Virus genome (UHGV): UHGV-0116081
Direction: 5' to 3' (one strand)
Origin: a virus
DNA length: 12,142 bases
How positions within the stretch are numbered: position 1 is the stretch's first letter; each line of letters begins with the position of its first letter. Shown here in pieces: positions 1 through 12,142 of the stretch. Below the pieces are notes generated by a model. That model was not told the origin of the DNA. It did not search any database and was given only the letters and a program-made list of their open reading frames with translations. The position numbers and the translations under genes were made by a program.

Positions 1-223
1 GCTTATTCAGTACATCAATGGCTTTTTCGTCACTTGGGACGGACTCACTAAGCGGCTCTGCCACTTTGTATTTTTTTACCCCAAAACGGATGAAAGGGTT
101 GAGCATCAATGAAACCATGCTTTGCTCGAAGTCATCCATGTTGGCCAATGCCTCTTTTTTTGCATTGGTTCCCATAGCTTTCATTTCGTCCAGCTTATGC
201 TTAAGTGCGATCAACTTTTTCAT
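1..223 (-). CDS. hypothetical protein, N-terminal part only (ORF continues past window start)
   Basis: Not in the track because it is truncated. Reverse-strand ATG at 223..221 overlaps the TGA stop (222..220) of the upstream 156-aa ORF as ATGA, then reads open for 74 codons to the window edge (hand translation: MKKLIALKHKLDEMKAMGTNAKKEALANMDDFEQSMVSLMLNPFIRFGVKKYKVAEPLSESVPSDEKAIDVLNK...). The N-terminus loosely resembles my recollection of the T4 DNA ligase N-terminus; unverified. Confidence 0.45.
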   Translation of the reverse strand, partial: MKKLIALKHKLDEMKAMGTNAKKEALANMDDFEQSMVSLMLNPFIRFGVKKYKVAEPLSESVPSDEKAIDVLNK

Positions 224-690
224 TGTTGTTTTGCCTCCATATGTTGATCGATTTGCTCATGTGTTTCTTTTGTTGTTTCTTCAAGCAACGCCGCATACAC
301 GTCAGTGATCGCTGTTTGTGATGTGGCGCTCTTCTTAACCATGCTATTAATCGTTACACTGTCACGTTTTCGTTTTATAGTTCTGGCTTGTTTATTCCGT
401 TCTTCAACCTCCTTAATGAGCGCGGTCATATCTTCGAAATACAGAGATTCTCCTTTACGAATCTCTTCAACCATCATTTTTAACGCCTTGCATTTGCCTG
501 CTTTAATAGCGGTTGCGCACGACTGGAAAGAAGTTCGAGGAAGACGGTTTTCTTTGAAGGCAAGAATGGTGTGCTGGCAAACGGAATAGCTGCAATATGT
601 CGACTCACCGTTTATCTTTACTTCCTCACAACGAAGTGAATAACCGTTATTTCCTGAAATAGAAGGGATTTTTGACAAATCAGCTTTCAC
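220..690 (-). CDS. hypothetical Cys-containing protein (possible zinc-binding N-terminal region, charged helical C-terminus)
   Basis: 156-aa ORF with a GTG start at 690..688 and no in-frame ATG until residue 72. Five Cys in the first 67 residues (C21, C33, C37, C58, C67), then a Lys/Glu-rich tail. Stop overlaps the start of the next ORF (ATGA). No family recognised. Confidence 0.55.
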   Translation of the reverse strand: MKADLSKIPSISGNNGYSLRCEEVKINGESTYCSYSVCQHTILAFKENRLPRTSFQSCATAIKAGKCKALKMMVEEIRKGESLYFEDMTALIKEVEERNKQARTIKRKRDSVTINSMVKKSATSQTAITDVYAALLEETTKETHEQIDQHMEAKQQ

Positions 691-757
691 AATTACCGCC
701 AGAAATAATCTTGTGCTTACCTATCATTATTTGCGTAAAAAACGACACACAGAGAGC

Positions 758-1534
758 TTACCAACTTCCCCAGCTAATCATCTTGCGCTGATCGCTTTCT
801 AAGCGATAAGGGGCAAGAAGCTCTGTGACATGATTGGTGGCGTATGATTTAGCCTCTTGCTTAATCATCGGTAATTCGTTAGCAATCCTGACCATCTTCC
901 CAGCAAATTCCGCCATTACGCCATCACAAGCCTTCCCCGCATCAACAACGATATGCACAAGATCCAACTGGCTTTTGCACATATCCCAAAGAGACGCGTA
1001 TTCACTCTCTCTGATTACATTTACGGCACTATTAGCCCCTTTATTAATCAAAACTTCCAACAGATTTTTCGGGGTAACGAAATCTGCTTTCAGAGATAAT
1101 GTCTTTTCACCACTTATCGAACGCAAGTACTCTTCGTAGTTATTCTTCATCAAACCGCTGCTGCGCATTGCTAGAACTGCTTCTTGAATGGCCGCGTCAA
1201 TAGTTTCGTCGTTTGAAAGACAAAAAACGGTATTTGTGTAGATCACTCTGCCATCAAGCCATGCTCCAACCTGCACTTTAAGACTGAGCGGGTTTTCTTT
1301 GCTAATAAAAACAACTAATGCAGAACGCCGTGCACAAGAAGGTTCGCCCCATACGTGTAACTCAACCTTCAGATAAGGCAACCCTGGTAGCGGGATCTCG
1401 TCCATACGAGCAGCGATATGATTCATTGCTGTATTGACGGCCTTTCCAATGATGTCTAGTCGACTGCCCTCGCTGATTTCTAAACCTGTTTTATCAATGA
1501 TGTCACAGGCCAATTTCTGAATTTCGTCTTTCAT
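758..1534 (-). CDS. hypothetical protein
   Basis: 258-aa ORF with ATG at 1534..1532 preceded by AGGAG about 7 nt upstream on the coding strand. No transmembrane segment or motif I recognise. First gene of a three-gene same-strand cluster. Confidence 0.7.
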   Translation of the reverse strand: MKDEIQKLACDIIDKTGLEISEGSRLDIIGKAVNTAMNHIAARMDEIPLPGLPYLKVELHVWGEPSCARRSALVVFISKENPLSLKVQVGAWLDGRVIYTNTVFCLSNDETIDAAIQEAVLAMRSSGLMKNNYEEYLRSISGEKTLSLKADFVTPKNLLEVLINKGANSAVNVIRESEYASLWDMCKSQLDLVHIVVDAGKACDGVMAEFAGKMVRIANELPMIKQEAKSYATNHVTELLAPYRLESDQRKMISWGSW

Positions 1535-1626
1535 ACCAACTCCTAGCTAACAGATGAAAGTATTCTTACAAATAACTAAGTATGTATCTACTTATCATTT
1601 TAGGCGCAATAGTTCCCTATACGAAG

Positions 1627-1653
1627 ATGCCGGGCTTATAGTCTGCCCGGCAT
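1627..1653 (-). other. GC-rich stem-loop just downstream of the lipoprotein stop (9-bp stem ATGCCGGGC/GCCCGGCAT, 9-nt loop)
   Basis: Inverted repeat read directly from the sequence. No U-tract follows on the minus-strand transcript, so it is not a canonical intrinsic terminator; may be an RNA-stabilising or intercistronic structure. Confidence 0.3.
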
Positions 1654-1659
1654 TCACCA

Positions 1660-2073
1660 TTAATGAGCTACAGCCTCACTGTTGCACATCTTTCTGTAGA
1701 CCTGCTTATAACGCTGTAAGTCATGAGGATCATTAGGTGCCAACGACTTCGATAGGATTTTGTATACCACCCCTTTCGAAAACATGCCCTTTGGCTTCAT
1801 TTCGAGTTCAACAACATATGAGTGATAGCCCACGTATGCACCAAAGCCATTTTTGGCGTTCAATTCTCCGCACACAAAGCCTGTCACACTCCCATCGTCA
1901 TGATCAGTCCTGACAAACTTATCTTTCCTAAACATCACCGACGTGGGATCTTTCATATCATCCGCAATTGCTTGTTGGCCCAGAGCAATAGCCTTCTCGT
2001 CTGTAGGCTTACACCCCACTAAAGCAAACAAAGACAATAAAGCTCCTGTTAAAATCAGCTTATTTTTGCTCAT
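1660..2073 (-). CDS. lipoprotein (predicted signal peptidase II substrate)
   Basis: 137-aa ORF with ATG at 2073..2071 and AAGGGAAG upstream. N-terminus MSKNKLILTGALLSLFALVGC has a positive n-region, hydrophobic core and lipobox L-V-G-C. Mature domain not recognised. Confidence 0.7.
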   Translation of the reverse strand: MSKNKLILTGALLSLFALVGCKPTDEKAIALGQQAIADDMKDPTSVMFRKDKFVRTDHDDGSVTGFVCGELNAKNGFGAYVGYHSYVVELEMKPKGMFSKGVVYKILSKSLAPNDPHDLQRYKQVYRKMCNSEAVAH

Positions 2074-2306
2074 GTTGGCTTCCCTTTATTTATATTTATC
2101 GCAGGTATTAGTTAATCAAAACACGAGCAGTGCCACAATAATTAAATGGCGTACTATTTCTTATGGTTATTAGTTTCCTAGTAACTTTACCGACCATAAA
2201 CTAAATCAACAAAGCTGACATATTAACTAAATTTAAGTACCCTTTTTCGCACACTTGACGCTTGCCGCGTCTAAACTGTTCATCCTATATCAACAGAACA
2301 AAAAAT

Positions 2307-3452
2307 ATGAAATACATAAAATCTTCATCGTTGCTGGCATTAACTTTGCTTTTTAGCTCTGGATTCGTTAACGCAGACAATAAACAAACGCTGATAGAAG
2401 CCGCTACCGCAGGGGATACCGCAGCACAAAGTGAGTTAGGGACAAATTATTTTGATGGTGTCAATGGTTTTGATAAGGATGTAGTTGAGGCCAAGAAGTG
2501 GATTGATCTCGCTGCAGAAAAGGGAGACAAAGTAGCATATTATGCACTTGGGGTTATGTACACATTTGGCGAGGGTGTAGATAAAGACTTAAATAAAGCA
2601 GTTGAGTACTACAAACTTGCGGGAGATGCTCGTGAAGGTAGAGCCTATAACAATCTTGGTGCTATTTATCAAAAGGGGATGCTTGGTAAAGTAGATCATG
2701 CGCTCGCCATTAAATACTTCAAACTAGCCTCTGATGCCGGGTATGTTAAAGCTAGCTACCTTCTTGGTGCGTATTACCAATATGGTAAAGGTGTACAAAA
2801 GAGTTATAAAAAAGCTTTTACTTATTACAAAAAAGCGGCGGATCAAGGTAGTTCAGATGGCATGTTCGCATTAGGCACCTTATACGATGACGGTTTAGGT
2901 GTTAAACGCAACGATGCCGAAGCAATTAAGTGGTATAAAAAAGCTGCTGAACTCGGAAACGCCGATGCCATGACAAATCTTGGCATTATGTATGAGTATG
3001 GTGAAGGGGTTAAAAAAGACTATAAAAAAGCAGCTGAGCTTTATCAGGCTGCTTGTGATAAAGAAGATAAAAATGGCTGTGATTACATTGCAGAACTGAA
3101 AGAAAGCGGCAAATATCGAGCGCCGGCTTCCAAAGCCAAAACAAAATCCGCCACCCAGCGACTTATTGCTAAATCCATTGATAAGGGCGTTAACGCTACA
3201 TTTACCTGGCAGGGTGATGATGCTACCTTCACCGCTAATGATGGCAAAGTTGACTGCACCTTCCTGAAGGATTTTTCAGAGAAAGGAGGCAATCTGGCTA
3301 CCTCGTTTGTTTGCACCGATAACGTTCAAATCATACTGAAGCAATTCAGAGATACCAAGAATGCCTACCTCGCGGTAATGACTGACAACTTCAACACAGA
3401 AGTTAAATCATTTTCGGTCAATGTGTACGTGACTAATACTGGTTCAAACTAA
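2307..3452 (+). CDS. secreted Sel1-like repeat (SLR/TPR-like) protein with a non-repeat C-terminal domain
   Basis: Track ORF begins at a TTG (2262); the first ATG at 2307 gives MKYIKSSSLLALTLLFSSGFVNA, a classic Sec signal peptide with a VNA cleavage site. About six tandem ~36-aa Sel1-type repeats (e.g. AEKGDKVAYYALGVMYTFGEGVDKDLNKAVEYYKLA; ADQGSSDGMFALGTLYDDGLGVKRNDAEAIKWYKKAA). The last ~110 aa are non-repetitive with 4 Cys. Sampled lines are AT-rich (about 30-50% G+C by hand count). Confidence 0.85.
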   Translation: MKYIKSSSLLALTLLFSSGFVNADNKQTLIEAATAGDTAAQSELGTNYFDGVNGFDKDVVEAKKWIDLAAEKGDKVAYYALGVMYTFGEGVDKDLNKAVEYYKLAGDAREGRAYNNLGAIYQKGMLGKVDHALAIKYFKLASDAGYVKASYLLGAYYQYGKGVQKSYKKAFTYYKKAADQGSSDGMFALGTLYDDGLGVKRNDAEAIKWYKKAAELGNADAMTNLGIMYEYGEGVKKDYKKAAELYQAACDKEDKNGCDYIAELKESGKYRAPASKAKTKSATQRLIAKSIDKGVNATFTWQGDDATFTANDGKVDCTFLKDFSEKGGNLATSFVCTDNVQIILKQFRDTKNAYLAVMTDNFNTEVKSFSVNVYVTNTGSN

Positions 3453-4628
3453 TGCAGCTATGCCTTTTACCTTGCTTAAAAGTTCAAGCTGTCGTGAATA
3501 AGGTTTTGCGCAATAGTAGGCTTTGATAATCTGCCCCGGTGTCGCATCGCCGGGGTCGAGTCCTTCCTCGCCCAAACACGCTACTTTGACATTAAGACCG
3601 ATACTGGTCAGTCGCCTGGCTGCGGCCATCGTGTTGCGTATAGCTTGCTTTTCACTATCCCACATCATAATCACATTACGTAATCCACGCGCCTTGAGCG
3701 TCAGGAACGCGCCCAACTGATCTTCTGCATCCTGAGTGGTGTTACCAGATAGATGCATCCCGAACGTTCCTATCGGTTCCACGTAATCGCGTAATGTTTC
3801 TTCATCAAAAATAGCTCGTTTAACCCCCATAACATCGAACGCCCCCTCACAGACAACTACAGTCTGTTTGCCGACTGCATTGTGGCCGTTGTAGAGAAAT
3901 TTACCCGATGCTGGCAGCTGCATGGGGAACAGATACCGGCGTTCTGCTGCACCGGTAATGTCACGACCCTGGAAGGTCTTCATCACGCCATCCAGATCGT
4001 AAACCGGTATCAGTATTCGCATATCGAATACCTGTCCTTTGACCTGGTCTGTGTACGGATCGACGTATGCGTGCTTGCCTTCGACGCAGTAACGCAGATC
4101 AAAGTATTTGGCCAGCTCCGGGGAAATCTGGCGCTCCACCAGATAATCAGGAAGACGACCGTCAATGGGGAGTTCGTAATGGCGCGGGAGAGCTACCGGT
4201 CCTTCCAGTTCAACCTTGCTGGCCAGCACGATCTCTTCCTTCTTCGGCGCCCAACCTTGTGAGATCAGCGCGTTCTGGACGTACTCTTCAAAATCGCGAC
4301 GGGATTTGCCGCTGTAATGCTTTAGGAAGACCAGCTTATTGAACTGAATCTCTTCGGGATGATCACCTGCAAAGCATTTGCCGACACCACTGGTCAGGTT
4401 GAAATAAACCTTCCAGTTTGAGCTGCCGCATACCGGACACTCTTTAATGTTGACCTCTCGTCCGCGAGTACTGACTCCACCATGACGGTAGATGATCCCT
4501 TCCATATCGAGCCATTGCTCAAAATCCAGCTCGGTCAGTAATTCTTTCAAGTCGCTCACGTTCTTACCCCTGTTTTTTGCAGGTAATATCTTGATAAGCC
4601 TCGGTATTTGAATACCATAAAGGCTCAT
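3444..4628 (-). CDS. DNA primase (zinc-ribbon + TOPRIM; DnaG / T7 gp4-primase-like)
   Basis: Zinc-ribbon-like CPVCGSS...CFAGDH followed by a TOPRIM signature VVVCEGAFDVMGV and a downstream acidic motif MMWDSEKQ. Start set at ATG 4628..4626 (MSLYGIQ...); the track's longer ORF begins at a TTG at 4655, so the start is uncertain by 9 codons. Lies directly downstream of the helicase gene. Confidence 0.8.
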   Translation of the reverse strand: MSLYGIQIPRLIKILPAKNRGKNVSDLKELLTELDFEQWLDMEGIIYRHGGVSTRGREVNIKECPVCGSSNWKVYFNLTSGVGKCFAGDHPEEIQFNKLVFLKHYSGKSRRDFEEYVQNALISQGWAPKKEEIVLASKVELEGPVALPRHYELPIDGRLPDYLVERQISPELAKYFDLRYCVEGKHAYVDPYTDQVKGQVFDMRILIPVYDLDGVMKTFQGRDITGAAERRYLFPMQLPASGKFLYNGHNAVGKQTVVVCEGAFDVMGVKRAIFDEETLRDYVEPIGTFGMHLSGNTTQDAEDQLGAFLTLKARGLRNVIMMWDSEKQAIRNTMAAARRLTSIGLNVKVACLGEEGLDPGDATPGQIIKAYYCAKPYSRQLELLSKVKGIAALV

Positions 4629-4682
4629 GTGTTTTTTCTTTTGTGGTTTTGGCAAAAGAGAAATTTGTTCTCTTCTGGAGAC

Positions 4683-4715: not shown

Positions 4716-6056
4716 TTAGAGGACGTCCATAATGCGTTCGATGAATCGCATTTGTTCGAGGTTCTGCTTAACGCGGATGCTTACGCCGCCTTTCTGGTTA
4801 CGTGAACCAGCGAAGTAAAGACGCGCTTCGCCTTTCGCTTCTTCTTCTTCCGTTTTGTTGATAGTGATAACGAGGTCAGCGATACGCACCTTCTCGATGT
4901 TGTCCGCTGCGTGCATCATTGTAGCCACCTCAGAAGCGCCACCTTCTCTGTTAGTCTGCGATGCCGTGATGCCGGCAACGTTGTGTTTGTCGTACAGCGC
5001 ACGCAGGTCAGTGTAGATGCTGCGAATGTTAGCGCGGTCGTCGCGGAGGTCGTAGCTGGCACGCATCAGGTCAGCGTAGTCGACCACAACCATATCGGGG
5101 ACCATACCGTTGGCTTTCATGCTGCCCAACATACGGTCCAGATCTGCGGGCGACATGCTTCCGGACGGTCGTTCAACAATCCACAAACTTCCCACGCCTT
5201 TCGTCGCACCCAGCTCCGCCAGTTTGCGATGGACGTCATCGCGACGTTCCACCAGCCTGGACATTTCGGTCTCAGACAGACGGGCGTCAAAGCGATCTGA
5301 CAGAATGGAGGTGTGAACTTCCAGCGACAGATACAGGACGTTGTAACCGGCAAGCGTGGCGTTGATGGAAAACTCCCCCATCGCCGTCGATTTACCAGAC
5401 TTAGCGAAGCCCATAAACAGCACCATTTCACGCTTTGCCCAGCCTTTCTGGTAAAGCAGTTTGTCGAGCAGCGGGAGGCCGGTAGTGATGCTGTTTGGCA
5501 CGTAATCGTCGGACGCTTCGTACTCACGGGCCTTGTAACGCTCCGCTGATTCTGCGAAGTAATCGTAAATGCCGGTCGCTTCGTTAGAGCCAATTTGCTG
5601 GACCTTAGCCATGATTGCCATCGCGCCCTGGAAATCACCCTTCTCTTTCATCTCAGCCGCTTTAATTAGCGCATCGTCGAACGCTACGCTTTTAGCAAAT
5701 GTCGCGACCTGGTCGACCATGTACGCCGTATCTGACAGCTTCTCAGCGAGAATGCGCTTAAACGCCTCAACAACGTCAGGGAACAGCTCTTCGCGGATCG
5801 TCTTATCGCGTTTGGCGCGTTTGAGCATGTCGAGGATGGCTGATGATGATGGTGCGCTCTTATACATTCTGTAGTAGCCCGACACCATGTTAACCAGAAT
5901 GGAGTTAGCCGCATTAGAGAACTGGTTTGGGGCAACCAGATCGCCTGCGCGAGTCAGAAACTCATGGTCGCGACAGAAGTAGGCTGCGAGTCTATTCTGG
6001 AAGTCGTCGTCGAACTCTTCAGACAACCCTCGTCCTGTGTGGCAAAGTTCGGTCAT
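4716..6056 (-). CDS. replicative DNA helicase, DnaB family
   Basis: 446-aa ORF with ATG at 6056..6054 and AAGGAA upstream. Walker A FMGFAKSGKST, a Walker B-like hydrophobic stretch ending in D (MVVVDYADL), and a DnaB H4-like motif ASQTNREG. Length and motif order fit the DnaB C-terminal RecA-like domain plus an N-terminal domain. Confidence 0.85.
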   Translation of the reverse strand: MTELCHTGRGLSEEFDDDFQNRLAAYFCRDHEFLTRAGDLVAPNQFSNAANSILVNMVSGYYRMYKSAPSSSAILDMLKRAKRDKTIREELFPDVVEAFKRILAEKLSDTAYMVDQVATFAKSVAFDDALIKAAEMKEKGDFQGAMAIMAKVQQIGSNEATGIYDYFAESAERYKAREYEASDDYVPNSITTGLPLLDKLLYQKGWAKREMVLFMGFAKSGKSTAMGEFSINATLAGYNVLYLSLEVHTSILSDRFDARLSETEMSRLVERRDDVHRKLAELGATKGVGSLWIVERPSGSMSPADLDRMLGSMKANGMVPDMVVVDYADLMRASYDLRDDRANIRSIYTDLRALYDKHNVAGITASQTNREGGASEVATMMHAADNIEKVRIADLVITINKTEEEEAKGEARLYFAGSRNQKGGVSIRVKQNLEQMRFIERIMDVL

Positions 6057-6947: not shown

Positions 6948-6961
6948 GTCTTTTAAAAGAC
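6948..6961. promoter_or_regulatory. 14-bp perfect palindrome GTCTTTTAAAAGAC in the divergent intergenic region
   Basis: Exact self-complementary sequence read directly, embedded in a 282-bp AT-rich spacer between divergent genes. A half-site-like GTCTTAGAC recurs at about 7024..7032. Candidate operator or origin-binding site. Confidence 0.3.
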
Positions 6962-7124
6962 CTGCTTCCGTATATATTTAATAAGTTACTTATTATTTAT
7001 ATACAGAAACAGGCATAACTTGTCGTCTTAGACACCCAGAAGCTCTACACTTTGAGCCTGTAAAATTGATTAAAAACTTATGTGTAAAATAGAACGCATT
7101 AGTCAGTAGCTAAGAGATGCAATA

Positions 7125-7892
7125 ATGGACGATTTATCGGTATACGCGAGATCATTGGATAAGGCTAAATACTATGTTTACTGTCTCTATGATACAGAAG
7201 ACAAGATGAAAAGACCGTTTTACATAGGAAAAGGCAAATCGACTCGTTGTCTCGATCACATCAAGTATCCCGATGACTCTCCCAAATCCATGCGGATCAA
7301 AGAACTTTTGGCTAATAAAAAATTAGGCATAGATATTCTTCGTCATGGTATGGATGAAACCACAGCCAAACTTGTTGAGGCGACATGCATCGACCTTATG
7401 GGGGTCGGAGAGCTTACGAATAAGGTACGAGGAAGTGGTTCCATGATGGGCAGAATATCACTGGACGCCTACCATCACTTAGTGCTGCAAGAGGAAACTG
7501 AAATTGCTCCTGAGCACGCCGGTCTTGCCTTCCTGCTAAACAGCACCTACAAGTCAGGAATGTCCGCTCTGGCATTATATGAAGCTACGCGTGGCGTATG
7601 GGCAAAGGTTCCAAGAGACGAGAATCTCAAATATGCCTACGCTACATATGGGGGCCTGATAATGGAAGTTTATCAGATTGAATGCTGGGTCAAAGCCGGT
7701 TCTCAGCAGTACTTTACAAGGGATATAGCTCTTGGCCCCGACACAAAACGTTATGAATTTGTTGGCAGAATAGCCGATGAGCATATTAGAAAACTGTATG
7801 TAGGCAAATTAATCAAGAAGCCACCAAGCTACGGCAGCCCTTTTGTGAAGGTTGGGGTGGTTAGGAATGAACATAGTGTTAGCGCGGCATAA
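7125..7892 (+). CDS. GIY-YIG nuclease-domain protein with an unrecognised C-terminal domain
   Basis: N-terminus YYVYCLYDTEDKMKRPFYIGKGKSTRCLDH matches the GIY...YIG...R...H arrangement of GIY-YIG nucleases (compare I-TevI and UvrC N-termini), with a downstream Glu (VEATCID) and Asn (TNKVRG) in plausible catalytic positions. C-terminal ~160 aa not recognised. Sampled lines are about 40% G+C, lower than the neighbouring replication genes. Confidence 0.7.
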   Translation: MDDLSVYARSLDKAKYYVYCLYDTEDKMKRPFYIGKGKSTRCLDHIKYPDDSPKSMRIKELLANKKLGIDILRHGMDETTAKLVEATCIDLMGVGELTNKVRGSGSMMGRISLDAYHHLVLQEETEIAPEHAGLAFLLNSTYKSGMSALALYEATRGVWAKVPRDENLKYAYATYGGLIMEVYQIECWVKAGSQQYFTRDIALGPDTKRYEFVGRIADEHIRKLYVGKLIKKPPSYGSPFVKVGVVRNEHSVSAA

Positions 7893-7906: not shown

Positions 7907-7946
7907 TTATGCATTGGCGCGTACATTGCGCCAATGCATAATTTTT
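7907..7946 (+). terminator. intrinsic (Rho-independent) terminator between convergent genes
   Basis: Perfect 14-bp stem TTATGCATTGGCGC / GCGCCAATGCATAA (7907..7920 and 7928..7941) with a 7-nt loop, followed by TTTTT (7942..7946). Starts 15 nt after the GIY-YIG stop; the T-tract abuts the stop of the convergent minus-strand gene. Confidence 0.7.
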
Positions 7947-8304
7947 AACCTTTCTTCATCAACTCTCGTTTGATTTCGTCGGTACGCATCGTGACGTCGG
8001 CAGCAGTGATCGCCTCGTTCAGTTTCACGATGTCTTCGATTTCCTGCGGTGACTTCTCTGCCAGATGGAAAATGGCTGCACGAATCACATCAGAACGGGT
8101 GAACTTCTCAAAACGAGGGATAAACTTCATCATCTCCAACAGTTCGAAGTACTCGTCTTCCAGCGACATTGTGCGGCTTTTAATCTTCTCTTTGCCACGA
8201 GTCGGACGCCCCTGCGGTCTGACTGGCTGGCGCAGTGGAGTGCTGCTTTTGGCCGGTTCTTTAGGCTCATTGCGCTTTGCAAGGTCTCCCATTCTCATGG
8301 ACAT
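7945..8304 (-). CDS. small partition / centromere-binding-like protein (ParG-like, possible ribbon-helix-helix)
   Basis: 119-aa basic protein immediately downstream of parA; its ATG (8304..8302) overlaps the parA stop and is preceded by GGAGGAAG. Disordered Lys/Arg/Pro-rich N-terminus and helical C-terminus (SRTMSLEDEYFELLEMMKFIPRFEKFTRSDVIRAAIFHLAEK). Assignment is by size and context. Confidence 0.55.
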   Translation of the reverse strand: MSMRMGDLAKRNEPKEPAKSSTPLRQPVRPQGRPTRGKEKIKSRTMSLEDEYFELLEMMKFIPRFEKFTRSDVIRAAIFHLAEKSPQEIEDIVKLNEAITAADVTMRTDEIKRELMKKG

Positions 8305-8969
8305 TATTCTTCCTCCAGACTCAAGATGTAATCTACAAACTCTTCGAACTCGGCTTCTGCCTTCTTATCGCGTTCAGCGCCAGTCATTTCAAAGATAGAA
8401 CGACCTGCCTCTTCCGCATCGTCATAAACGTTACGGTTGTACAGATTGACCGGCGCAGCCTCGATGCCGAAAGTTTCGACAATTTCCTTCGCGGCCAGAA
8501 TACGTGATACCTGGGAAGGCAATGACGGACACTGGTTTATTACCGCGCGGATCTTAACTTTCTCGTTCACATTGCGAACGTTGTCGATAATCGGGTCGAT
8601 ATCACGCAGAGATTTCAAATCACGACGTTTAGGGCGCAGCGGGATGATGATTACATCAGCCATAAGCATCGCCAGACGCTGAATTTCGGAGTCAAAGCCA
8701 CCAGCATCTACCACTACATAATCAGTTCGCCCCTGAAGCGATTTAAGATGTTTGACGATGTCGTCCTGCACATAAGCGAACGGGATCAGTTCAAGATCTT
8801 CGTTCTGGCGACGGTCTTCACACCAGCTGGTCGTGGTGCGCTGGATATCGATATCGGTGACGTGAACCTTCTTTTTCTTTTTAACTTTGAGACATACCGC
8901 AATTTGCTGGGCAACGGTAGATTTGCCTGGGCCGCCTTTTGTGCCGCCAACCACAATGATCTTGGTCAT
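8304..8969 (-). CDS. parA: ParA-family partition ATPase (small, type Ib-like)
   Basis: 221-aa ORF with ATG at 8969..8967 and AAGGAAA upstream. Deviant Walker A KGGPGKST within MTKIIVVGGTKGGPGKSTVAQ, and a hydrophobic-D motif YVVVDAGGFD. Contains a lysine run KVKKKKKV encoded by an A-rich tract at about 8867..8884. Confidence 0.9.
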   Translation of the reverse strand: MTKIIVVGGTKGGPGKSTVAQQIAVCLKVKKKKKVHVTDIDIQRTTTSWCEDRRQNEDLELIPFAYVQDDIVKHLKSLQGRTDYVVVDAGGFDSEIQRLAMLMADVIIIPLRPKRRDLKSLRDIDPIIDNVRNVNEKVKIRAVINQCPSLPSQVSRILAAKEIVETFGIEAAPVNLYNRNVYDDAEEAGRSIFEMTGAERDKKAEAEFEEFVDYILSLEEE

Positions 8970-9115
8970 TGGTGAGTTTCCTTTGCGTGAATTATTGTCG
9001 TATGAAACAACTTGTTTTCTTATATGCGATATAGCCTAAATGCCTACGGCTGCGGTGTAAAGGTTATTTAGTAGGTTGTTATTGCCTATTGCTAGTAATT
9101 GTTATCATTTGTCTG

Positions 9116-9144
9116 TTGAAAAAAGTGACAATCATCTCTATATT
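9116..9144 (+). promoter_or_regulatory. candidate sigma70-type promoter (-35 TTGAAA, 17-bp spacer, -10 TATATT) facing the toxin-antitoxin operon
   Basis: Hexamers read directly at 9116..9121 and 9139..9144, each 5/6 to consensus, with a 17-bp spacer. The predicted start lies inside the inverted repeat at 9147..9169. Confidence 0.35.
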
Positions 9145-9146
9145 AC

Positions 9147-9169
9147 GTGTACGGTAAATTGCCGTACAC
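9147..9169. promoter_or_regulatory. inverted repeat GTGTACGG-N7-CCGTACAC overlapping the predicted transcription start (candidate operator)
   Basis: 8-bp perfect arms with a 7-bp spacer, read directly; sits just downstream of the candidate -10. Confidence 0.35.
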
Positions 9170-9190
9170 AATTTGATGACACATACGCAA

Positions 9191-9204: not shown

Positions 9205-9250
9205 GTTAAATAACCTTTGAGTCGAAAACTCAGTTTAAATAGAGAGCAAT

Positions 9251-9277: not shown

Positions 9278-9288
9278 AGGGGGTACAC

Positions 9289-9558
9289 ATGTCCGCACTG
9301 AAAAAGCAGCGCATCGATTTGAGATTAACCGATGACGATAAAAGCATCATCGAGGAAGCTGCCGCAATGTCTAACCAGAGCATTACCCAGTTCATGGTTA
9401 GCAGTGCATCCGAACGTGCCGTGAAGGTGATAGAGCAACACCGTAGACTGGTTCTAAGTGAAGAGTCCTGGAATCTGGTTATGGATGCTATAAGCAATCC
9501 TCCGGCACCGAACGACAAGCTGAAACGAGCTGCCAATCGTCTGAAAAGCATGGAGTAA
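9289..9558 (+). CDS. DUF1778-type (TacA/AtaR-like) antitoxin, ribbon-helix-helix
   Basis: 89-aa ORF with ATG at 9289 and AGGGGG about 5 nt upstream. Sequence pattern (KKQRIDLRLTDDDKSIIEEAAAMSNQSITQFMVSSASERAVKVIEQHRR...) matches the length and layout of DUF1778 antitoxins that pair with GNAT toxins, and it sits directly upstream of a GNAT ORF. Confidence 0.8.
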   Translation: MSALKKQRIDLRLTDDDKSIIEEAAAMSNQSITQFMVSSASERAVKVIEQHRRLVLSEESWNLVMDAISNPPAPNDKLKRAANRLKSME

Positions 9559-9565
9559 TTTACTC

Positions 9566-10087
9566 GTGAGCAATACGACGATCGAGATTTTCTCTGGAGA
9601 GAACGATTATGATCTAAACGGTTTTGATTGCGGCGAAGAGTCACTAAACGCATTTTTGACCAACCACTTAAAAAGACAGCATGAAGGAAAAATTCTTCGC
9701 GCTTATGTGCTTTGCACTAAAGAAGAAATACCAAAGGTATTAGGTTATTACACTTTGTCAGGCAGCTGCTTTGAGAAAGAAACCTTACCTTCAAAGAGTC
9801 AGCAAAAGAAAGTGCCTTATCGGAATGTCCCAAGTATCACTTTAGGCAGACTGGCTTTGGACAAATCTCTTCAAGGTCAGGGGCTTGGCTCAATGCTTGT
9901 AACTCACGCAATGCGTGTTGTGTACAATGCATCTCTTGCGGTAGGCATTCATGGGCTTTTCGTTGAGGCGTTGAACGATAAAGCCAGGGCGTTTTATAAA
10001 AGTTTGGGCTTTATCCAGCTGGTTGGTAACAACGATCGTTCTTTGTTCTATCCAACAAAATCTATCGAAAAATTGTTCGAAGAATAA
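9566..10087 (+). CDS. GNAT-family acetyltransferase toxin (TacT/AtaT/ItaT-like)
   Basis: 173-aa ORF with a GTG start at 9566, 7 nt after the antitoxin stop, with GGAG inside the antitoxin 3' end. GNAT acetyl-CoA-binding region (ITLGRLALDKSLQGQGLGSMLVTHAM) and overall pattern typical of toxin-type GNATs. Confidence 0.8.
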   Translation: MSNTTIEIFSGENDYDLNGFDCGEESLNAFLTNHLKRQHEGKILRAYVLCTKEEIPKVLGYYTLSGSCFEKETLPSKSQQKKVPYRNVPSITLGRLALDKSLQGQGLGSMLVTHAMRVVYNASLAVGIHGLFVEALNDKARAFYKSLGFIQLVGNNDRSLFYPTKSIEKLFEE

Positions 10088-10093
10088 TGTGTC

Positions 10094-10109
10094 CCCCTCA
10101 TTTGAGGGG
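10094..10109. other. short GC-rich hairpin between the convergent toxin and o-spanin genes (CCCCTCA / TGAGGGG)
   Basis: 7-nt complementary arms with a minimal loop, read directly. No clean T-tract on either side, so only a weak terminator candidate. Confidence 0.25.
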
Positions 10110-10119
10110 AACTTCGACA

Positions 10120-10335
10120 TCACCAACCGCAAACTCTCTCTCCCATCGTATTGTGAAAAAGGATTTGGCGTTCGGTTTCTTCGGTCATTACATCGTCATT
10201 GCTGATATAAATAGGTTCAGCGCCATCGCAGAACAACACGCTGGTGGTCTGTGGCTTAATTACGCACCCACTTATCATGCAGCTCACGATGAATGGCAGA
10301 AGCATCTTTCTGACGTATTTCACTGTTCGTCTCAT
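10120..10335 (-). CDS. o-spanin-like outer-membrane lipoprotein (Rz1-like), overlapped with the i-spanin gene
   Basis: 71-aa ORF with ATG at 10335..10333. N-terminus MRRTVKYVRKMLLPFIVSCMISGC has a basic n-region, hydrophobic core and lipobox I-S-G-C; short mature part ends in a Cys (RVCGW). Its 5' end overlaps the 3' end of the i-spanin ORF (10256..10335) in another frame, the classic overlapped spanin layout. Confidence 0.5.
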   Translation of the reverse strand: MRRTVKYVRKMLLPFIVSCMISGCVIKPQTTSVLFCDGAEPIYISNDDVMTEETERQILFHNTMGERVCGW

Positions 10336-10507
10336 TCACCACTTCCACTGTGCTTTGAAGACGCTTGTTATCTTCCCGCCGTTCTTTCTCTTCCATACTG
10401 CGTCTGGCCATATACCCGCCATAGGAGTATGCGCCGACAAGGACTAGAATGACGGCGGCCAGAGTGAACAAAGCGGATTTCATTTTGAACAACAGGCCGT
10501 CGAACAT
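10256..10507 (-). CDS. i-spanin-like protein (Rz-like; N-terminal transmembrane anchor plus charged periplasmic helix)
   Basis: 83-aa ORF with ATG at 10507..10505, 2 nt after the endolysin-like stop. N-terminal TMD (ALFTLAAVILVLVGAYSYGGY) followed by a Glu/Arg/Lys-rich predicted coiled coil. Shorter than typical Rz. Confidence 0.5.
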   Translation of the reverse strand: MFDGLLFKMKSALFTLAAVILVLVGAYSYGGYMARRSMEEKERREDNKRLQSTVEVVNETNSEIRQKDASAIHRELHDKWVRN

Positions 10508-10509
10508 AC

Positions 10510-11202
10510 TTACACTAATCCTTTCTGGTGCTTGCGAACCTGGGACCAGGCAATGAATGCTGCCACAAGAATGGTAGCTACGCCAAAGATGATGCGTACC
10601 GTATCTCCACTGGAGATATTGCCTTGCGCTTTATCCATTGCGGCAGAAACTTGAGGCATAACGTCAGCAATTTGTGCAAGGCCAATACCTGCAGTGACTG
10701 TAGCACCTGTGGTTTCTTTTGTTACAGGAACGGCTTTTACAGCCTTTACCGGTTTGACAATGCCGGCACGTCGCAGACCTTCTTCGATAAGTTCTGGTGT
10801 ATACCAGCTATTGGGAGTTTTCAGCGGACCTCGGCCATTTTCATGTCTAATGATCGCCTCTACCAGCGGTCTTAAGGTCTCGTAGTCATGCAGATCGATA
10901 ATCATATCTGGTGCTACTCCAACGGCTTTGGATACCTCGTTCACATAAGCCAAAGTGTTGTTCTCATGTGGAGGCGCCCAGCGTTCGATGACTTCGCGGA
11001 TCGTATCAATGCTGGAGCCATCTTTTGCGCGGCGCTTGTCGTGGTAAGTAATGAGTGTCACTGCCAATGCCCGAATCCCCCACACGGGGTCTTTAAACGT
11101 GCAGAAGCGCGGTTCTGAAGAGTTGTTGACTAAGCCCTGCCACGGCGCTCCTTTATCAAGATTACCGGGGTTGTTATTACGAATGCCTCTCGGAGTTTTC
11201 AT
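10510..11202 (-). CDS. endolysin-like protein (peptidoglycan hydrolase candidate) with a C-terminal transmembrane segment
   Basis: Start placed at ATG 11202..11200 (MKTPRGIRNNNPGNL...) because AGGAGA lies 8 nt upstream; the track's start at 11229 lacks this. Sits between a holin-like gene and the spanin pair. Contains the motif GIRNNNPGN, which I associate only vaguely with phage lysis proteins; the catalytic family is not identified. C-terminal hydrophobic stretch IIFGVATILVAAFIAW. Confidence 0.45.
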   Translation of the reverse strand: MKTPRGIRNNNPGNLDKGAPWQGLVNNSSEPRFCTFKDPVWGIRALAVTLITYHDKRRAKDGSSIDTIREVIERWAPPHENNTLAYVNEVSKAVGVAPDMIIDLHDYETLRPLVEAIIRHENGRGPLKTPNSWYTPELIEEGLRRAGIVKPVKAVKAVPVTKETTGATVTAGIGLAQIADVMPQVSAAMDKAQGNISSGDTVRIIFGVATILVAAFIAWSQVRKHQKGLV

Positions 11203-11215
11203 CCTTGATCTCCTG

Positions 11216-11551
11216 TTATTGCAATCCATTTTTTACGCCATACGCGGCCAATCCTAAAAGCAGTACGGTAATAATGAACGACGTTATTTTCGAAACAATG
11301 CCGCCAAAGAACCCACTGGAGATGGTGTCGAGCCGGTTAAGAAGTTTGTCCAGATTGGAGTGCTGAATGCTGTGTTGTGCGGGCGTCATATCGCCAAAGT
11401 AGGTTTTGAGCTGGTCATTGACCTCCTGACCAATTTCCTCGCGTATTTCTTTACCTAATTTGCCTACGACTTCCCGAGCAACGATTGAGGCGATGCGCTC
11501 AACCTGTTCAGTTGTGACTCCCGCCATCTCGTTCGACATGTTTTCCTCCAT
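11216..11551 (-). CDS. holin-like small membrane protein (single C-terminal TMD)
   Basis: 111-aa ORF with ATG at 11551..11549, directly upstream of the endolysin-like gene. Hydrophilic N-terminal ~85 aa, then one strongly hydrophobic segment (FGGIVSKITSFIITVLLLGLAAYGV). Assignment is by context and topology, not homology. Confidence 0.4.
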   Translation of the reverse strand: MEENMSNEMAGVTTEQVERIASIVAREVVGKLGKEIREEIGQEVNDQLKTYFGDMTPAQHSIQHSNLDKLLNRLDTISSGFFGGIVSKITSFIITVLLLGLAAYGVKNGLQ

Positions 11552-11599
11552 GAAAAGTCAAATCGGGATGGCGTGTTTATATCATATTTTAACCATTTG

Positions 11600-11623
11600 T
11601 AGTAGGTATGTACTTACCTACTA
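11600..11623. promoter_or_regulatory. 24-bp near-perfect palindrome TAGTAGGTATGTACTTACCTACTA upstream of the lysis cassette
   Basis: 11 of 12 base pairs symmetric about the centre (one T/T mismatch). Lies in the 121-bp AT-rich gap between the tfa stop and the holin-like start, about 50 bp upstream of the latter. Confidence 0.4.
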
Positions 11624-11654
11624 TATATCTTGCAAACTAATCGTTGTTAATAAT

Positions 11655-11669
11655 GCAGATATAATCTGC
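11655..11669 (-). other. short hairpin GCAGAT-ATA-ATCTGC just downstream of the tfa stop
   Basis: 6-bp perfect arms with a 3-nt spacer, starting 4 nt after the tfa stop codon. No U-tract follows, so it is a weak terminator candidate or a protein-binding site. Confidence 0.25.
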
Positions 11670-11672
11670 CCC

Positions 11673-12142
11673 TTACTCTGCTGGTATTGTTGGCCAGTCA
11701 ATATCCGGTGCCGTTGATGTGTCAATGCGGTTCAATAAAACTCTATACTTCTTCCATGCAGTCAGCAACGATGCTTCTTCCTCCGTTGCAATCTCCAAAT
11801 CTACAGCATCCTGAAGTGGCGCAATGTGCTCGCTGGCTACCTGCATCAGACTTTTTTTTGTTTCTTCCGCTTCCCGTACCTGAAACAATTTTTCTGTTTC
11901 CTCATCCTTCTCCCAGGATGTGCCGTCCCACTTCTGATATTCCCCATCCGGTGATAACCAGGTGACATTTTCCGGTAATGGCCCAAGTTCAGAAATAAAC
12001 AACGCGTCCCCTGATTCCACGTCATAGACCGTTTTACCCCTGTGGTCTTCAACGAGACTCCATGATTTATTTTCGCTGTTGAATACGGCCACGAAGCCTG
12101 CCGGAATATCTGGCGGTGCAATATCGGTACTGTTTGCTGGCA
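11673..12142 (-). CDS. tfa: tail fiber assembly protein (Tfa family), N-terminus beyond window end
   Basis: C-terminal sequence ...[61 protein letters not shown] closely matches what I recall of enterobacterial prophage Tfa proteins. The track's GTG start at 12092 is probably internal: the frame stays open upstream to the window edge (...[25 protein letters not shown]...), which also matches the Tfa N-terminal region. Confidence 0.85.

What the first reader, a model, noticed from the sequence alone, without database searches (positions are those of the whole stretch)
1..12142. Mosaic architecture consistent with a phage-plasmid
Virion and lysis functions (Tfa, holin/endolysin/spanins) are co-located with autonomous-replication and plasmid-maintenance functions (DnaB-like helicase, primase, ParA plus partner, TA), and no integrase is visible. 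Genes sit in alternating-strand blocks separated by AT-rich spacers, with two AT-rich islands (Sel1/lipoprotein and GIY-YIG) interrupting GC-richer core modules. This is the pattern expected of an extrachromosomal prophage with hotspots for accessory cargo.
Basis: inference. Interest (0 to 1): 0.5.

Follow-up and report, generated by a model that had tools for sequence, protein, structure and literature searches.

The report
Segment of an SSU5-like phage-plasmid

Summary
The window carries a tail-fibre assembly gene and a lysis cassette next to a ParA-type partition operon, a toxin-antitoxin pair, and a helicase and primase. There is no room for an integrase.

The same gene order occurs in Salmonella phage SSU5, pHCM2 and several hundred closed, non-mobilizable plasmids of about 100-130 kb. 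In complete E. coli genomes the backbone lies on plasmids in 267 of 270 places.

Three corrections are needed:
1. The helicase and primase are phage-type replisome genes. The plasmid initiator (RepA, Rep_3 family) lies outside the window in the one relative read in full.
2. Relatives carry a tyrosine recombinase 5-7 kb left of the window. SSU5 lacks it at that position.
3. There are three accessory slots, not two, and comparison defines them better than GC content. They hold a lipoprotein plus Sel1 protein, a PD-T4-3/CMoRE-like GIY-YIG nuclease (anti-phage defence), and an AtaRT/KacAT-type toxin-antitoxin pair.

The window is also a recombinant. Bases 1-3400 are 99-100% identical to one E. coli lineage and bases 3400-12142 to another.

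The kind of element is already known. One minor item may be new: a 65-nt block upstream of parA is invariant across genera.

The parts
1..184 (-). 5' part of an ATP-dependent DNA ligase gene, cut by the window start (backbone)
   Evidence: The frame is open to base 1. It matches phrog_21758 and phrog_114 (DNA ligase). A ligase is annotated at this position in pToe3-1, SSU5 and CP099286.
220..690 (-). Backbone gene of unknown function (156 aa)
   Evidence: phrog_5055 at E 2e-84. Present at this position in SSU5, pHCM2 and the E. coli relatives.
758..1534 (-). Backbone gene of unknown function (258 aa). It exists as two deeply divergent alleles.
   Evidence: phrog_4248 at E 5e-131. It is 99-100% identical at the protein level in the CP099286 lineage but only 41-42% in pToe3-1, SSU5 and pHCM2.
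1660..2073 (-). Slot 1 cargo: lipoprotein (137 aa)
   Evidence: Lipobox LVGC at residues 18-21; phrog_2320. Absent from SSU5, pHCM2 and the Klebsiella relative. The slot is empty (81 bp) in L010.
2307..3452 (+). Slot 1 cargo: Sel1-repeat protein with an apparent N-terminal signal sequence. The ORF opens at TTG 2262; relatives annotate 381 aa starting at 2307.
   Evidence: Pfam Sel1 174 bits, 6 repeats. The segment 1600-3443 occurs in only 61 PLSDB plasmids, 60 of them Escherichia, against 688 for the backbone.
3444..4655 (-). DNA primase (backbone). It contains the recombination junction at about 3400-4000.
   Evidence: phrog_47 DNA primase at E 5e-62; weak DnaG_N and Toprim matches; TIGR01391. 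Identity to CP099286 falls from 96% to 76% across 3400-4400.
4716..6056 (-). DnaB-like replicative helicase (backbone, phage-type)
   Evidence: Pfam DnaB_C 49 bits; phrog_19 at E 4e-87; closest solved chains 8due and 8dtp.
6117..6842 (-). Conserved backbone gene (241 aa), first gene of the helicase-primase operon; function unknown
6961..7013 (.). AT-rich palindrome (26-nt arms) between the divergent hyp241 and GIY-YIG genes, at the edge of slot 2
   Evidence: Inverted repeat I1, 85% complementary. Partly conserved in SSU5 (90% over 50 nt) and pHCM2. Function not tested.
7125..7892 (+). Slot 2 cargo: GIY-YIG nuclease of the PD-T4-3/CMoRE family (candidate anti-phage type IV restriction enzyme)
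   Evidence: PADLOC PD-T4-3 at E 1.3e-23, nearly full length. PDB 9u7u and 9u75 at E 2e-15 over residues 12-230. Pfam LEM-3_GIY-YIG 30 bits. Replaced by a KAP/P-loop NTPase or DUF2971 genes in relatives.
7907..7941 (+). Terminator-like hairpin after the GIY-YIG gene
   Evidence: 15-pair stem followed by a T run; perfect 14-nt arms.
7945..8304 (-). Partner of ParA (119 aa): candidate ribbon-helix-helix, ParG-like centromere-binding protein
8304..8969 (-). ParA-type partition ATPase, small type (221 aa)
   Evidence: NF041546 ParA_partition 118 bits, below its 180-bit cut-off. Pfam AAA_31, MipZ and CbiA; phrog_164. The closest solved chain is ParF of TP228, aligned over its full length at E 5e-12. 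The KGGPGKS Walker A motif is visible.
8970..9066 (-). Conserved non-coding region upstream of parA: promoter-like hexamers plus the palindrome GAAACAAgTTGTTTC (9005-9019). Candidate operator and centromere.
   Evidence: About 65 consecutive columns are invariant or nearly so in the window, pToe3-1, SSU5, CP099286, pEC21Z137, a Klebsiella plasmid and pHCM2. The block is 96-99% identical where the adjacent parA DNA is 78-94%. About 500 further plasmids match only these first 65-81 nt, at roughly 94-100% in the rows listed.
9116..9170 (+). Promoter-like site (TTGAAA-17-TATATT) and palindrome upstream of the antitoxin gene
   Evidence: Best promoter match in the window, 10 of 12. The palindrome GTGTACGG..CCGTACAC can be read.
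9289..9558 (+). Slot 3 cargo: DUF1778/TacA-family antitoxin (KacA/AtaR-like)
   Evidence: Pfam TacA1 91 bits. PDB 5zgn chain A (KacA) at E 2.5e-41.
9566..10087 (+). Slot 3 cargo: GNAT acetyltransferase toxin (KacT/AtaT-like)
   Evidence: PDB 6gts and 6ajm at E about 1e-78; KacT (5zgn) at E 6e-76. Pfam GNAT. Replaced by unrelated genes in SSU5, pHCM2, the Klebsiella relative and L010-L012.
10091..10112 (-). Terminator-like hairpin after the lysis cassette
   Evidence: 9-pair stem with 6 GC pairs on the minus strand, just downstream of the o-spanin stop.
10120..10335 (-). o-spanin (outer-membrane lipoprotein). It overlaps the i-spanin gene by 80 nt.
   Evidence: phrog_1275 Rz-like spanin at E 3e-25. 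Lipobox ISGC.
10256..10507 (-). i-spanin
   Evidence: phrog_1026 Rz-like spanin at E 4e-22. N-terminal membrane segment at residues 4-34.
10510..11202 (-). Endolysin with a C-terminal hydrophobic segment
   Evidence: phrog_873 endolysin at E 3e-86. PDB 7q47 'Endolysin' at E 6e-56 over residues 3-151. Membrane-like segment at 199-223. Relatives annotate 230 aa.
11216..11539 (-). Putative holin (107 aa), assigned by position only
   Evidence: Lies immediately upstream of the endolysin gene. One C-terminal membrane segment at 76-106. phrog_5093 has no assigned function. SSU5_026 is annotated 'putative holin'.
11673..12142 (-). Lambda-type tail-fibre assembly protein gene, 5' end cut by the window (variable host-range cassette)
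   Evidence: Pfam Caudo_TAP 151 bits. 85% nucleotide identity to lambda tfa. Present in pToe3-1, pEC21Z137 and pGS04EC-1; no match in SSU5, CP099286, pHCM2 or the Klebsiella relative.

Best explanation
The window is an internal 12 kb stretch of an SSU5/pHCM2-type phage-plasmid. This is a temperate siphovirus of Enterobacteriaceae whose prophage is a low-copy circular plasmid of about 105-130 kb.

**Backbone.** It is read entirely on the minus strand: ligase, two unknown genes, primase, helicase, hyp241, the ParA partner, ParA, the spanins, endolysin, the putative holin, and then the tail-fibre genes.
- The helicase and primase, with DnaE, an SSB, an exonuclease and a ligase elsewhere on the element, form a phage-type replisome. 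I infer that it serves lytic replication.
- Plasmid-mode replication starts from a Rep_3 initiator that lies outside the window.
- The small ParA and its 119-aa partner form a ParF/ParG-like (type Ib) partition system. I infer that it acts on the invariant promoter and palindrome block directly upstream of parA, segregating the prophage at cell division.
- The holin, endolysin and spanins lyse the cell after induction.

**Accessory slots.** Three slots interrupt the backbone, and most of their genes are read on the opposite strand.
- Slot 1 (1535-3443): a lipoprotein and a secreted Sel1-repeat protein.
- Slot 2 (6843-7944): a PD-T4-3/CMoRE-like GIY-YIG nuclease, probably restricting phages with hydroxymethylated or glucosylated cytosine.
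- Slot 3 (8970-10119): a KacAT/AtaRT-type toxin-antitoxin pair, for post-segregational killing and/or defence.
- The lambda-type Tfa and tail-fibre module is a fourth exchangeable cassette that sets host range.

**Recombination.** Homologous recombination between co-circulating lineages has shuffled the slots and backbone arms, and the window is itself a recombinant.

**Shown versus inferred.** Gene identities, synteny, location on plasmids, slot variability and the mosaic breakpoints are shown. The division of labour between the replisome and RepA, the role of the invariant block, and the activities of the cargo genes are inferred.
For: **Identity and synteny**
- SSU5, Cyrano and CMS-2020a match in the phage collection. 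In the plasmid collection 822 records match, 786 of them non-mobilizable.
- The annotated relatives pToe3-1, SSU5, CP099286, pEC21Z137, a Klebsiella plasmid and pHCM2 share the same backbone order.

**Extrachromosomal state**
- The backbone is present in 263 of 5426 complete E. coli genomes, in 267 plasmid places against 3 chromosomal ones.

**Complete phage**
- pGS04EC-1 carries capsid, portal, large terminase, tape-measure and tail genes. It also carries DnaE, a gp32-family SSB, an exonuclease, RepA and a tyrosine recombinase. RepA is Rep_3 family.

**Partition**
- ParA aligns over its full length with ParF. The upstream block is invariant.

**Cargo**
- PD-T4-3; KacT/AtaT and KacA; Sel1 repeats.

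**Slots**
- The backbone occurs in 688 plasmids. Slot 1 cargo covers at least 80% of its query in 49, slot 2 cargo in 135 and slot 3 cargo in 143.
- Contigs with an identical hyp258 allele carry different cargo in each slot, in different combinations. Slot 1 is empty in L010.
- Slot sizes are 81-7516, 996-2209 and 1078-1672 bp.

**Mosaic**
- Bases 1-3400 are 99-100% identical to CP099286, and 3400-12142 are 99-100% identical to pToe3-1. Each lineage drops to 68-85% over much of the other arm.
- NZ_CP022167 has slot 1 at 99.8% identity but the primase and helicase at 83.1%.

**Literature**
- PMC7969092 describes the SSU5 supergroup. PMC9928086 reports Cyrano's copy number and virions. PMC12923530 gives the PD-T4-3 mechanism. 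Preprint 10.1101/2025.09.12.675607 reports PD-T4-3 in SSU5-type phage-plasmids of E. coli and Shigella.
Against: - The window has no capsid, terminase, repressor or plasmid initiator gene. Its phage-plasmid nature therefore rests on relatives, not on the window alone.
- The replicon it came from was not available. It could be a deleted or IS-ridden derivative that no longer makes virions: CP057716 is only 69.9 kb, and pToe3-1 carries IS26.
- No single record in the collections matches the whole window at 98% or more.
- The partner protein's fold is unconfirmed. The centromere assignment and the holin call are also unconfirmed.
Confidence: 0.93

Rival explanations
1. The source is a degraded derivative of an SSU5-like phage-plasmid. 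It persists only as a plasmid because its structural or regulatory genes were lost or interrupted by insertion sequences.
For: - Some close relatives are shortened or enlarged. CP057716 and CP057895 are 69.9 kb, although they are 98.2% identical to window 1476-12129.
- pToe3-1 is 131 kb and carries IS26.
- pGS04EC-1 has a ligase pseudogene and several IS fragments.
Against: - All 18 genes in the window are intact open reading frames, including the lysis cassette.
- Most relatives listed are 105-115 kb with full structural modules.
Confidence: 0.15
2. The element is integrated in the chromosome as a conventional prophage, using the tyrosine recombinase found next to this region in relatives.
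For: - Relatives encode a Phage_integrase-family protein 5-7 kb left of the window.
- Three of 270 backbone places in complete E. coli genomes are on chromosomes.
- Some window proteins occur on contigs of about 4.9 Mb.
Against: - 267 of 270 places are on plasmids.
- SSU5 lacks the recombinase at that position: CobT lies directly next to tRNA-Asn.
- A partition operon and a Rep_3 initiator are retained.
- Cyrano is present at 5.5 copies per cell as a plasmid (PMC9928086).
Confidence: 0.03
3. The juxtaposition of phage and plasmid genes is an assembly chimera of an unrelated plasmid and a phage.
For: The window changes its nearest relative at about 3400, and its tfa gene is 85% identical to lambda tfa.
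Against: - The same order, from helicase and par genes through the lysis genes to the tail fibre, is seen in hundreds of independently closed circular plasmids and in the SSU5 phage record.
- Identity declines gradually across the junction inside the primase gene (96, 89, 81%), as expected of homologous recombination rather than a join of unrelated contigs.
Confidence: 0.01

Closest known systems
Salmonella phage SSU5 (JQ965645 / NC_018843) and the SSU5_pHCM2 group of phage-plasmids (Pfeifer et al. 2021, PMC7969092)
   Same: - The backbone order is the same from the ligase to the holin.
- Nucleotide identity is 89% over half the window.
- Protein identity is 93-98% for the primase, hyp241, the ParA partner, ParA and the holin.
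- The invariant block upstream of parA is the same.
   Different: - All three slots hold other genes in SSU5: SSU5_041 in slot 1, DUF2971 plus three hypothetical genes in slot 2, and SSU5_031/032 in slot 3.
- SSU5 has cor and membrane-protein genes and a different tail fibre where the window has the lambda-type tfa.
- The hyp258 protein is only 41% identical and the i-spanin 65%.
E. coli plasmids pToe3-1 (NZ_CP069087), pEC21Z137-115K (NZ_CP101235), pGS04EC-1 (NZ_CP079773) and CP099286
   Same: - pToe3-1 is 98.4% identical over 1476-12142.
- pEC21Z137 and pGS04EC-1 are 98-99% identical over 3430-12142.
- CP099286 is 99-100% identical over 1-3400.
   Different: - None matches the whole window at high identity.
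- pEC21Z137 and pGS04EC-1 carry a yehD-type fimbrial operon plus Phd/Doc in slot 1.
- pEC21Z137 has a different par allele, 82-86% identical.
- CP099286 has a primase and helicase 75-85% identical and a different tail-fibre module.
Escherichia phage Cyrano (pLF82, OV696614)
   Same: It is an SSU5-like phage-plasmid of E. coli covering 73% of the window at 85.8% identity. It also carries a KacT-type toxin. It is shown experimentally to be a plasmid at 5.5 copies per cell that produces virions (PMC9928086).
   Different: It belongs to a different lineage and its accessory content differs in part.
ParF/ParG partition system of plasmid TP228 (type Ib)
   Same: A small ParA with a deviant Walker A motif, aligned with ParF over its full length. 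A small partner gene lies downstream, and conserved DNA lies upstream of the ATPase gene.
   Different: - Sequence similarity is low (E 5e-12).
- The partner is 119 aa with two extra C-terminal helices, and its ribbon-helix-helix fold is unconfirmed.
- The upstream element shows one 15-nt palindrome. From memory, the TP228 operator is an array of tetramer boxes.
PD-T4-3 / CMoRE (PDB 9U7U, 9U75; PMC12923530) and KacAT/AtaRT (PDB 5ZGN, 6AJM, 6GTS)
   Same: The GIY-YIG protein aligns with CMoRE across nearly its whole length. The toxin and antitoxin are close homologues of KacT/KacA and of the 6ajm/6gts chains.
   Different: The GIY-YIG protein is a distant relative of the solved CMoRE (60 bits), so its specificity may differ. 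No activity was tested here.

Membership tests
Phage-plasmid (Pfeifer et al. 2021) | Phage virion and lysis genes on the replicon | tested here: met
   The lysis cassette and tfa are in the window. Capsid, portal, large terminase, tape-measure and tail genes are present in the close relatives pGS04EC-1 and pToe3-1. The window itself holds no head genes.
Phage-plasmid (Pfeifer et al. 2021) | Plasmid replication and/or partition genes on the same replicon | tested here: met
   The ParA operon is in the window. A Rep_3 RepA is present in the relative but outside the window.
Phage-plasmid (Pfeifer et al. 2021) | Extrachromosomal maintenance of the prophage | not testable with these tools
   The source replicon was not given. 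By proxy, 267 of 270 backbone places in complete E. coli genomes are on plasmids, and Cyrano has 5.5 copies per cell (PMC9928086).
SSU5 supergroup, SSU5_pHCM2 group | Shared gene repertoire and synteny with SSU5 and pHCM2 | tested here: met
   The backbone is collinear with both. Protein identity is 92-98% for five anchor genes, and nucleotide identity is 89% over 50% of the window.
Type Ib (ParF/ParG-like) partition system | Small ParA (about 200-230 aa) with a deviant Walker A motif and no N-terminal DNA-binding domain | tested here: met
   221 aa with KGGPGKS at residues 11-17. It aligns over residues 3-200 with residues 2-190 of ParF.
Type Ib (ParF/ParG-like) partition system | Small ribbon-helix-helix centromere-binding partner encoded downstream | tested here: inconclusive
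   [not shown]
Type Ib (ParF/ParG-like) partition system | Centromere and operator upstream of the ATPase gene | tested here: inconclusive
   A 65-nt invariant block with a 15-nt palindrome lies 36-97 nt upstream of parA. Binding cannot be tested here.
GNAT/DUF1778 type II toxin-antitoxin (KacAT/AtaRT/TacAT) | DUF1778 antitoxin gene directly upstream of a GNAT toxin gene, both homologous to characterised pairs | tested here: met
   TacA1 91 bits; KacA at E 2.5e-41. The toxin matches 6gts and 6ajm at E about 1e-78 and KacT at 6e-76. The gap between the two genes is 7 nt.
PD-T4-3 / CMoRE type IV restriction endonuclease | [quoted passage not shown] | tested here: met
   The PADLOC PD-T4-3 model matches residues 11-231 against profile positions 11-238 of 256, at E 1.3e-23. 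PDB 9u7u matches residues 12-230 against 17-243, at E 2e-15. Restriction of modified DNA was not tested.
Two-component spanin, overlapped architecture | An i-spanin with an N-terminal membrane segment, and an o-spanin lipoprotein gene that starts inside the i-spanin gene and extends beyond it | tested here: met
   PHROG Rz-like spanins; membrane segment at 4-34 and lipobox ISGC; the genes overlap over 10256-10335.
Holin | Small membrane protein with one or more transmembrane domains, encoded next to the endolysin gene, with demonstrated or family-level holin function | tested here: inconclusive
   Its position and one C-terminal membrane segment fit. However, phrog_5093 has no assigned function and there is no Pfam match.

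The most novel reading that the evidence does not exclude
The 65-nt block upstream of parA (about 9002-9066) is invariant or nearly so from E. coli to Klebsiella, Salmonella and Enterobacter. The flanking genes in the same elements have diverged to about 80% identity. The block could be the shared centromere and operator of the ParF/ParG-like system. If so, it would act as a single partition-incompatibility determinant for the SSU5_pHCM2/pKpn-type phage-plasmids examined here, and two such elements could not stably share a cell whatever their cargo. As far as I could find, this site has not been defined experimentally.

A second, weaker lead is that hyp241 is a gp59-like helicase loader.
Probability: 0.35. 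Interest if true: 0.35.

Novelty: already known. Interest (0 to 1): 0.15.

Why it matters
Little follows for discovery. SSU5/pHCM2-like phage-plasmids are a catalogued, abundant family; the backbone is present in 4.8% of complete E. coli genomes.

The practical value is in annotation:
- The region should be labelled as phage-plasmid backbone with three cargo slots.
- The GIY-YIG gene should be labelled PD-T4-3/CMoRE-like defence.
- The toxin-antitoxin pair should be labelled KacAT/AtaRT-type.

The slot map and the invariant element upstream of parA may help anyone studying cargo exchange, incompatibility or typing in this family.

Tried and rejected
- **GC content as an island delimiter.** Rejected, because backbone genes at 220-1534 are as AT-rich as the cargo.
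- **Palindrome 6961-7013 as a dispersed repeat.** The 'two places per record' for many hits may be the palindrome matching itself on both strands, as it does in the local BLAST. This was not checked in the PLSDB records, and three-place records were not looked at.
- **Iterons or an origin in the window.** Only Sel1 coding repeats and chance pairs were found.
- **RNA genes.** The Rfam hit IS009 lies inside the tfa coding sequence. The ARAGORN tRNA-Lys overlaps the parA start on the opposite strand. I treated both as by-products of coding sequence rather than RNA genes of this element; neither was followed up.
- **Insertion scars at slot 1.** Comparing the empty site (L010) with the filled site showed no direct repeats.
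- **Exact source contig.** Looked for through the hyp258 allele. Contigs with that allele all carry the other primase-helicase lineage.
- **Preprint 10.64898/2026.08.19.745698.** It could not be opened.

Full report
**1. What is in the window**

Eighteen genes fill the 12,142 bases, and the longest non-coding gap is 319 bp.

On the minus strand:
- the 5' part of a DNA ligase gene (1-184)
- two conserved unknown genes (220-690 and 758-1534; phrog_5055 and phrog_4248)
- a lipoprotein (1660-2073; lipobox)
- a DnaG-type primase (3444-4655)
- a DnaB-like helicase (4716-6056)
- a conserved 241-aa unknown gene, hyp241 (6117-6842)
- a 119-aa gene abutting a 221-aa ParA gene (7945-8304 and 8304-8969)
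- an overlapped spanin pair, an endolysin and a putative holin (10120-11539)
- a lambda-type tail-fibre assembly gene, cut by the window end (11673-12142)

On the plus strand:
- a Sel1-repeat protein (2307-3452)
- a GIY-YIG protein (7125-7892)
- a DUF1778 antitoxin and a GNAT toxin (9289-10087)

No integrase fits anywhere in the window. The one weak call is the holin. It rests on position and one C-terminal membrane segment, and its PHROG family has no assigned function.

**2. What it belongs to**

- The phage collection returns Escherichia phage CMS-2020a (80% coverage), Cyrano (73%) and Salmonella phage SSU5 (50% at 89% identity).
- The plasmid collection returns 822 records, 786 of them non-mobilizable.
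- The primase-helicase backbone alone is in 688 plasmids: Klebsiella 281, Escherichia 222, Enterobacter 91, Salmonella 49. Most of those listed are 105-115 kb.
- In complete E. coli genomes the backbone occurs in 263 of 5426 genomes. It is in 267 plasmid places and 3 chromosomal ones.
- I read one close relative in full: pGS04EC-1, 106,228 bp and circular, 99.2% identical over 3430-12142.
  - It has major capsid, portal, large terminase, tape-measure and tail genes.
  - It has DnaE, a gp32-family SSB, an exonuclease and a ligase.
  - It has a RepA of the Rep_3 family about 32 kb from the window's equivalent, and a tyrosine recombinase.
- The literature calls this family the SSU5 supergroup of phage-plasmids (PMC7969092). 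For the E. coli member Cyrano it reports 5.5 copies per cell and virion production (PMC9928086).

The interpretation 'phage-plasmid' is therefore supported, and the family is already well described.

**3.

(a) The helicase and primase are not evidence of plasmid-style replication.
- Their closest solved relatives are entries named DnaB-like replicative helicase (8due/8dtp). From memory, these are the T4 gp41 primosome structures.
- They sit with other replisome genes on the element.
- The iteron-type initiator is elsewhere.
- The plasmid-specific signal in the window is the par operon.

(b) 'No integrase' holds for the window only.
- A Phage_integrase-family gene lies 5.4 kb (CP099286) to 6.7 kb (pToe3-1) left of base 1 in relatives.
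- SSU5 lacks it at that position, where CobT lies directly next to tRNA-Asn. It is therefore cargo or a resolvase rather than a core integration function. That reading is an inference.

(c) GC content does not define the islands.
- The Sel1 gene (0.41) and the GIY-YIG gene (0.45) are below the primase-helicase-hyp241 block (0.50-0.54).
- Backbone genes at 220-1534 (0.41-0.44) and the toxin gene (0.41) are equally low.

**4. Cargo slots defined by comparison**

Conserved anchor genes define three slots whose content and size vary.

| Slot | Position in window | Size range among relatives | Content in the window | Content in relatives |
|---|---|---|---|---|
| 1, hyp258 to primase | 1535-3443 | 81-7516 bp | lipoprotein + Sel1 protein | a yehD-type fimbrial operon plus Phd/Doc (pEC21Z137, pGS04EC-1); one unrelated plus-strand gene (SSU5, pHCM2, Klebsiella); nothing (L010) |
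| 2, hyp241 to the ParA partner | 6843-7944 | 996-2209 bp | GIY-YIG nuclease | KAP/P-loop NTPase; DUF2971, with or without extra genes |
| 3, parA to the spanins | 8970-10119 | 1078-1672 bp | toxin-antitoxin pair | unrelated genes |

- Across PLSDB, slot 1 cargo covers at least 80% of its query in 49 plasmids, slot 2 cargo in 135 and slot 3 cargo in 143. The backbone is in 688.
- Contigs that share an identical hyp258 allele carry different cargo in each slot, in different combinations.
- All plus-strand genes in the window are cargo. All backbone genes are on the minus strand.
- Terminator-like hairpins close the GIY-YIG gene (7907-7941) and the lysis cassette (10112-10091).
- The tfa and tail-fibre module is a fourth exchangeable cassette. 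It is 85% identical to lambda tfa. It is present in pToe3-1, pEC21Z137 and pGS04EC-1. SSU5, CP099286, pHCM2 and the Klebsiella relative gave no match to it.

**5. What the cargo is**

- The GIY-YIG protein matches the PADLOC model for PD-T4-3 almost end to end (E 1.3e-23). It also matches the solved CMoRE structures 9U7U and 9U75 (E 2e-15).
- PD-T4-3/CMoRE is reported to be a type IV endonuclease that cuts DNA containing 5hmC or glucosyl-5hmC (PMC12923530). A 2025 preprint notes PD-T4-3 in SSU5-type phage-plasmids of E. coli and Shigella.
- The toxin-antitoxin pair is close to KacT/KacA and to the chains of 6ajm and 6gts (E about 1e-78 and 1e-41). From memory, 6ajm and 6gts are AtaT/AtaR, a toxin that acetylates initiator Met-tRNA.
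- The Sel1 protein and the lipoprotein both carry export signals. Their role is unknown.

**6. Partition system**

- ParA is small and has a KGGPGKS Walker A motif. It aligns over its full length with ParF of TP228.
- The 119-aa partner has an invariant N-terminal MGDLAK motif, a basic tail and a conserved helical core.
- Directly upstream of parA, about 65 nt are invariant or nearly so in seven elements from four genera. The block contains promoter-like hexamers and the palindrome GAAACAAgTTGTTTC at 9005-9019.
- It is 96-99% identical where the neighbouring parA DNA is 78-94%.
- About 500 more plasmids match the query only over these first 65-81 nt, at roughly 94-100% in the rows listed.
- I read this block as the par promoter and operator, and probably the centromere. 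That is an inference.

**7. Mosaicism**

A 200-nt sliding identity profile shows the following.
- Bases 1-3400 are 99-100% identical to CP099286. Bases 1-1000 are only 68-81% identical to pToe3-1, pEC21Z137 and SSU5.
- Bases 3400-12142 are 99-100% identical to pToe3-1. Much of the backbone in this stretch is 75-85% identical to CP099286.
- The switch is gradual inside the primase gene (96, 89, 81%).
- The GIY-YIG cassette is 97.5-100% identical over 7001-7800 in all three E. coli lineages, despite flanks at about 80-85%.
- pEC21Z137 carries a different par allele (82-86%).
- NZ_CP022167 has slot 1 at 99.8% but the primase and helicase at 83.1%.
- No record in the three collections matches the whole window at 98% or more. 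The five window proteins that were looked up are all already in public data as exact sequences.

**8. Verdict**

This is a known kind of element. The only mildly new items are the invariant block upstream of parA and the explicit three-slot map.

Rivals:
- A degraded, plasmid-only derivative cannot be excluded from the window alone (about 0.15).
- Chromosomal integration (about 0.03) and misassembly (about 0.01) are unlikely.

Noticed in passing
window 8970-9066 (core about 9002-9066): A non-coding block upstream of parA is invariant or nearly so in E. coli, Salmonella (SSU5, pHCM2) and Klebsiella elements whose coding backbone is only about 80% identical. It contains a 15-nt palindrome (9005-9019) and promoter-like hexamers. 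About 500 further PLSDB plasmids match only this stretch of the query.
   Followed up: partly
window 6961-7013: An AT-rich palindrome with 26-nt arms (85% complementary) lies between the divergent hyp241 and GIY-YIG genes, at the edge of slot 2. It is partly conserved in SSU5 and pHCM2. It could be an operator, a lytic origin or a recombination boundary.
   Followed up: partly
window 758-1534: The backbone gene hyp258 exists as two alleles only 41-42% identical at the protein level, in elements whose neighbouring genes are 92-100% identical. This suggests allele replacement or strong diversifying selection.
   Followed up: no
[not shown]
   Followed up: partly
window 10510-11202: The endolysin has a catalytic domain like PDB 7q47 (residues 3-151), followed by a roughly 80-residue tail ending in a hydrophobic, membrane-like segment (199-223). 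This is unusual for an endolysin encoded next to a separate holin.
   Followed up: no
window 11713-11911 (-): The Rfam family IS009 (RF02111) matches at 189.6 bits inside the tfa coding sequence. The 'RNA family' appears to be a conserved piece of lambdoid tfa genes rather than an RNA gene of this element.
   Followed up: no
window 8901-8981 (+): ARAGORN calls a tRNA-Lys (anticodon TTT) that overlaps the parA start codon on the opposite strand. It is probably spurious.
   Followed up: no
L001 8730-9833; L003 12460-13563; L007 14848-15951: Relatives carry a tyrosine recombinase, with YafO-type toxin, PhoH or glutaredoxin genes, between CobT and tRNA-Asn. In SSU5 that interval is only 165 bp. 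This is another cargo hotspot just outside the window.
   Followed up: partly
L010 9926-10000 versus window 1535-3443: An empty slot 1 (81 bp) exists in GCA_021493445. Comparison with the filled site shows no direct repeats. A short palindrome (ATAAGTAGAT..TACTTAT) is kept next to the hyp258 promoter side.
   Followed up: partly
L008 34936-36284 (pGS04EC-1): Two adjacent ParB_N-domain genes sit beside the terminase region of the relative. They are separate from the ParA operon in the window, and their role (partition or a phage function) is unclear.
   Followed up: no
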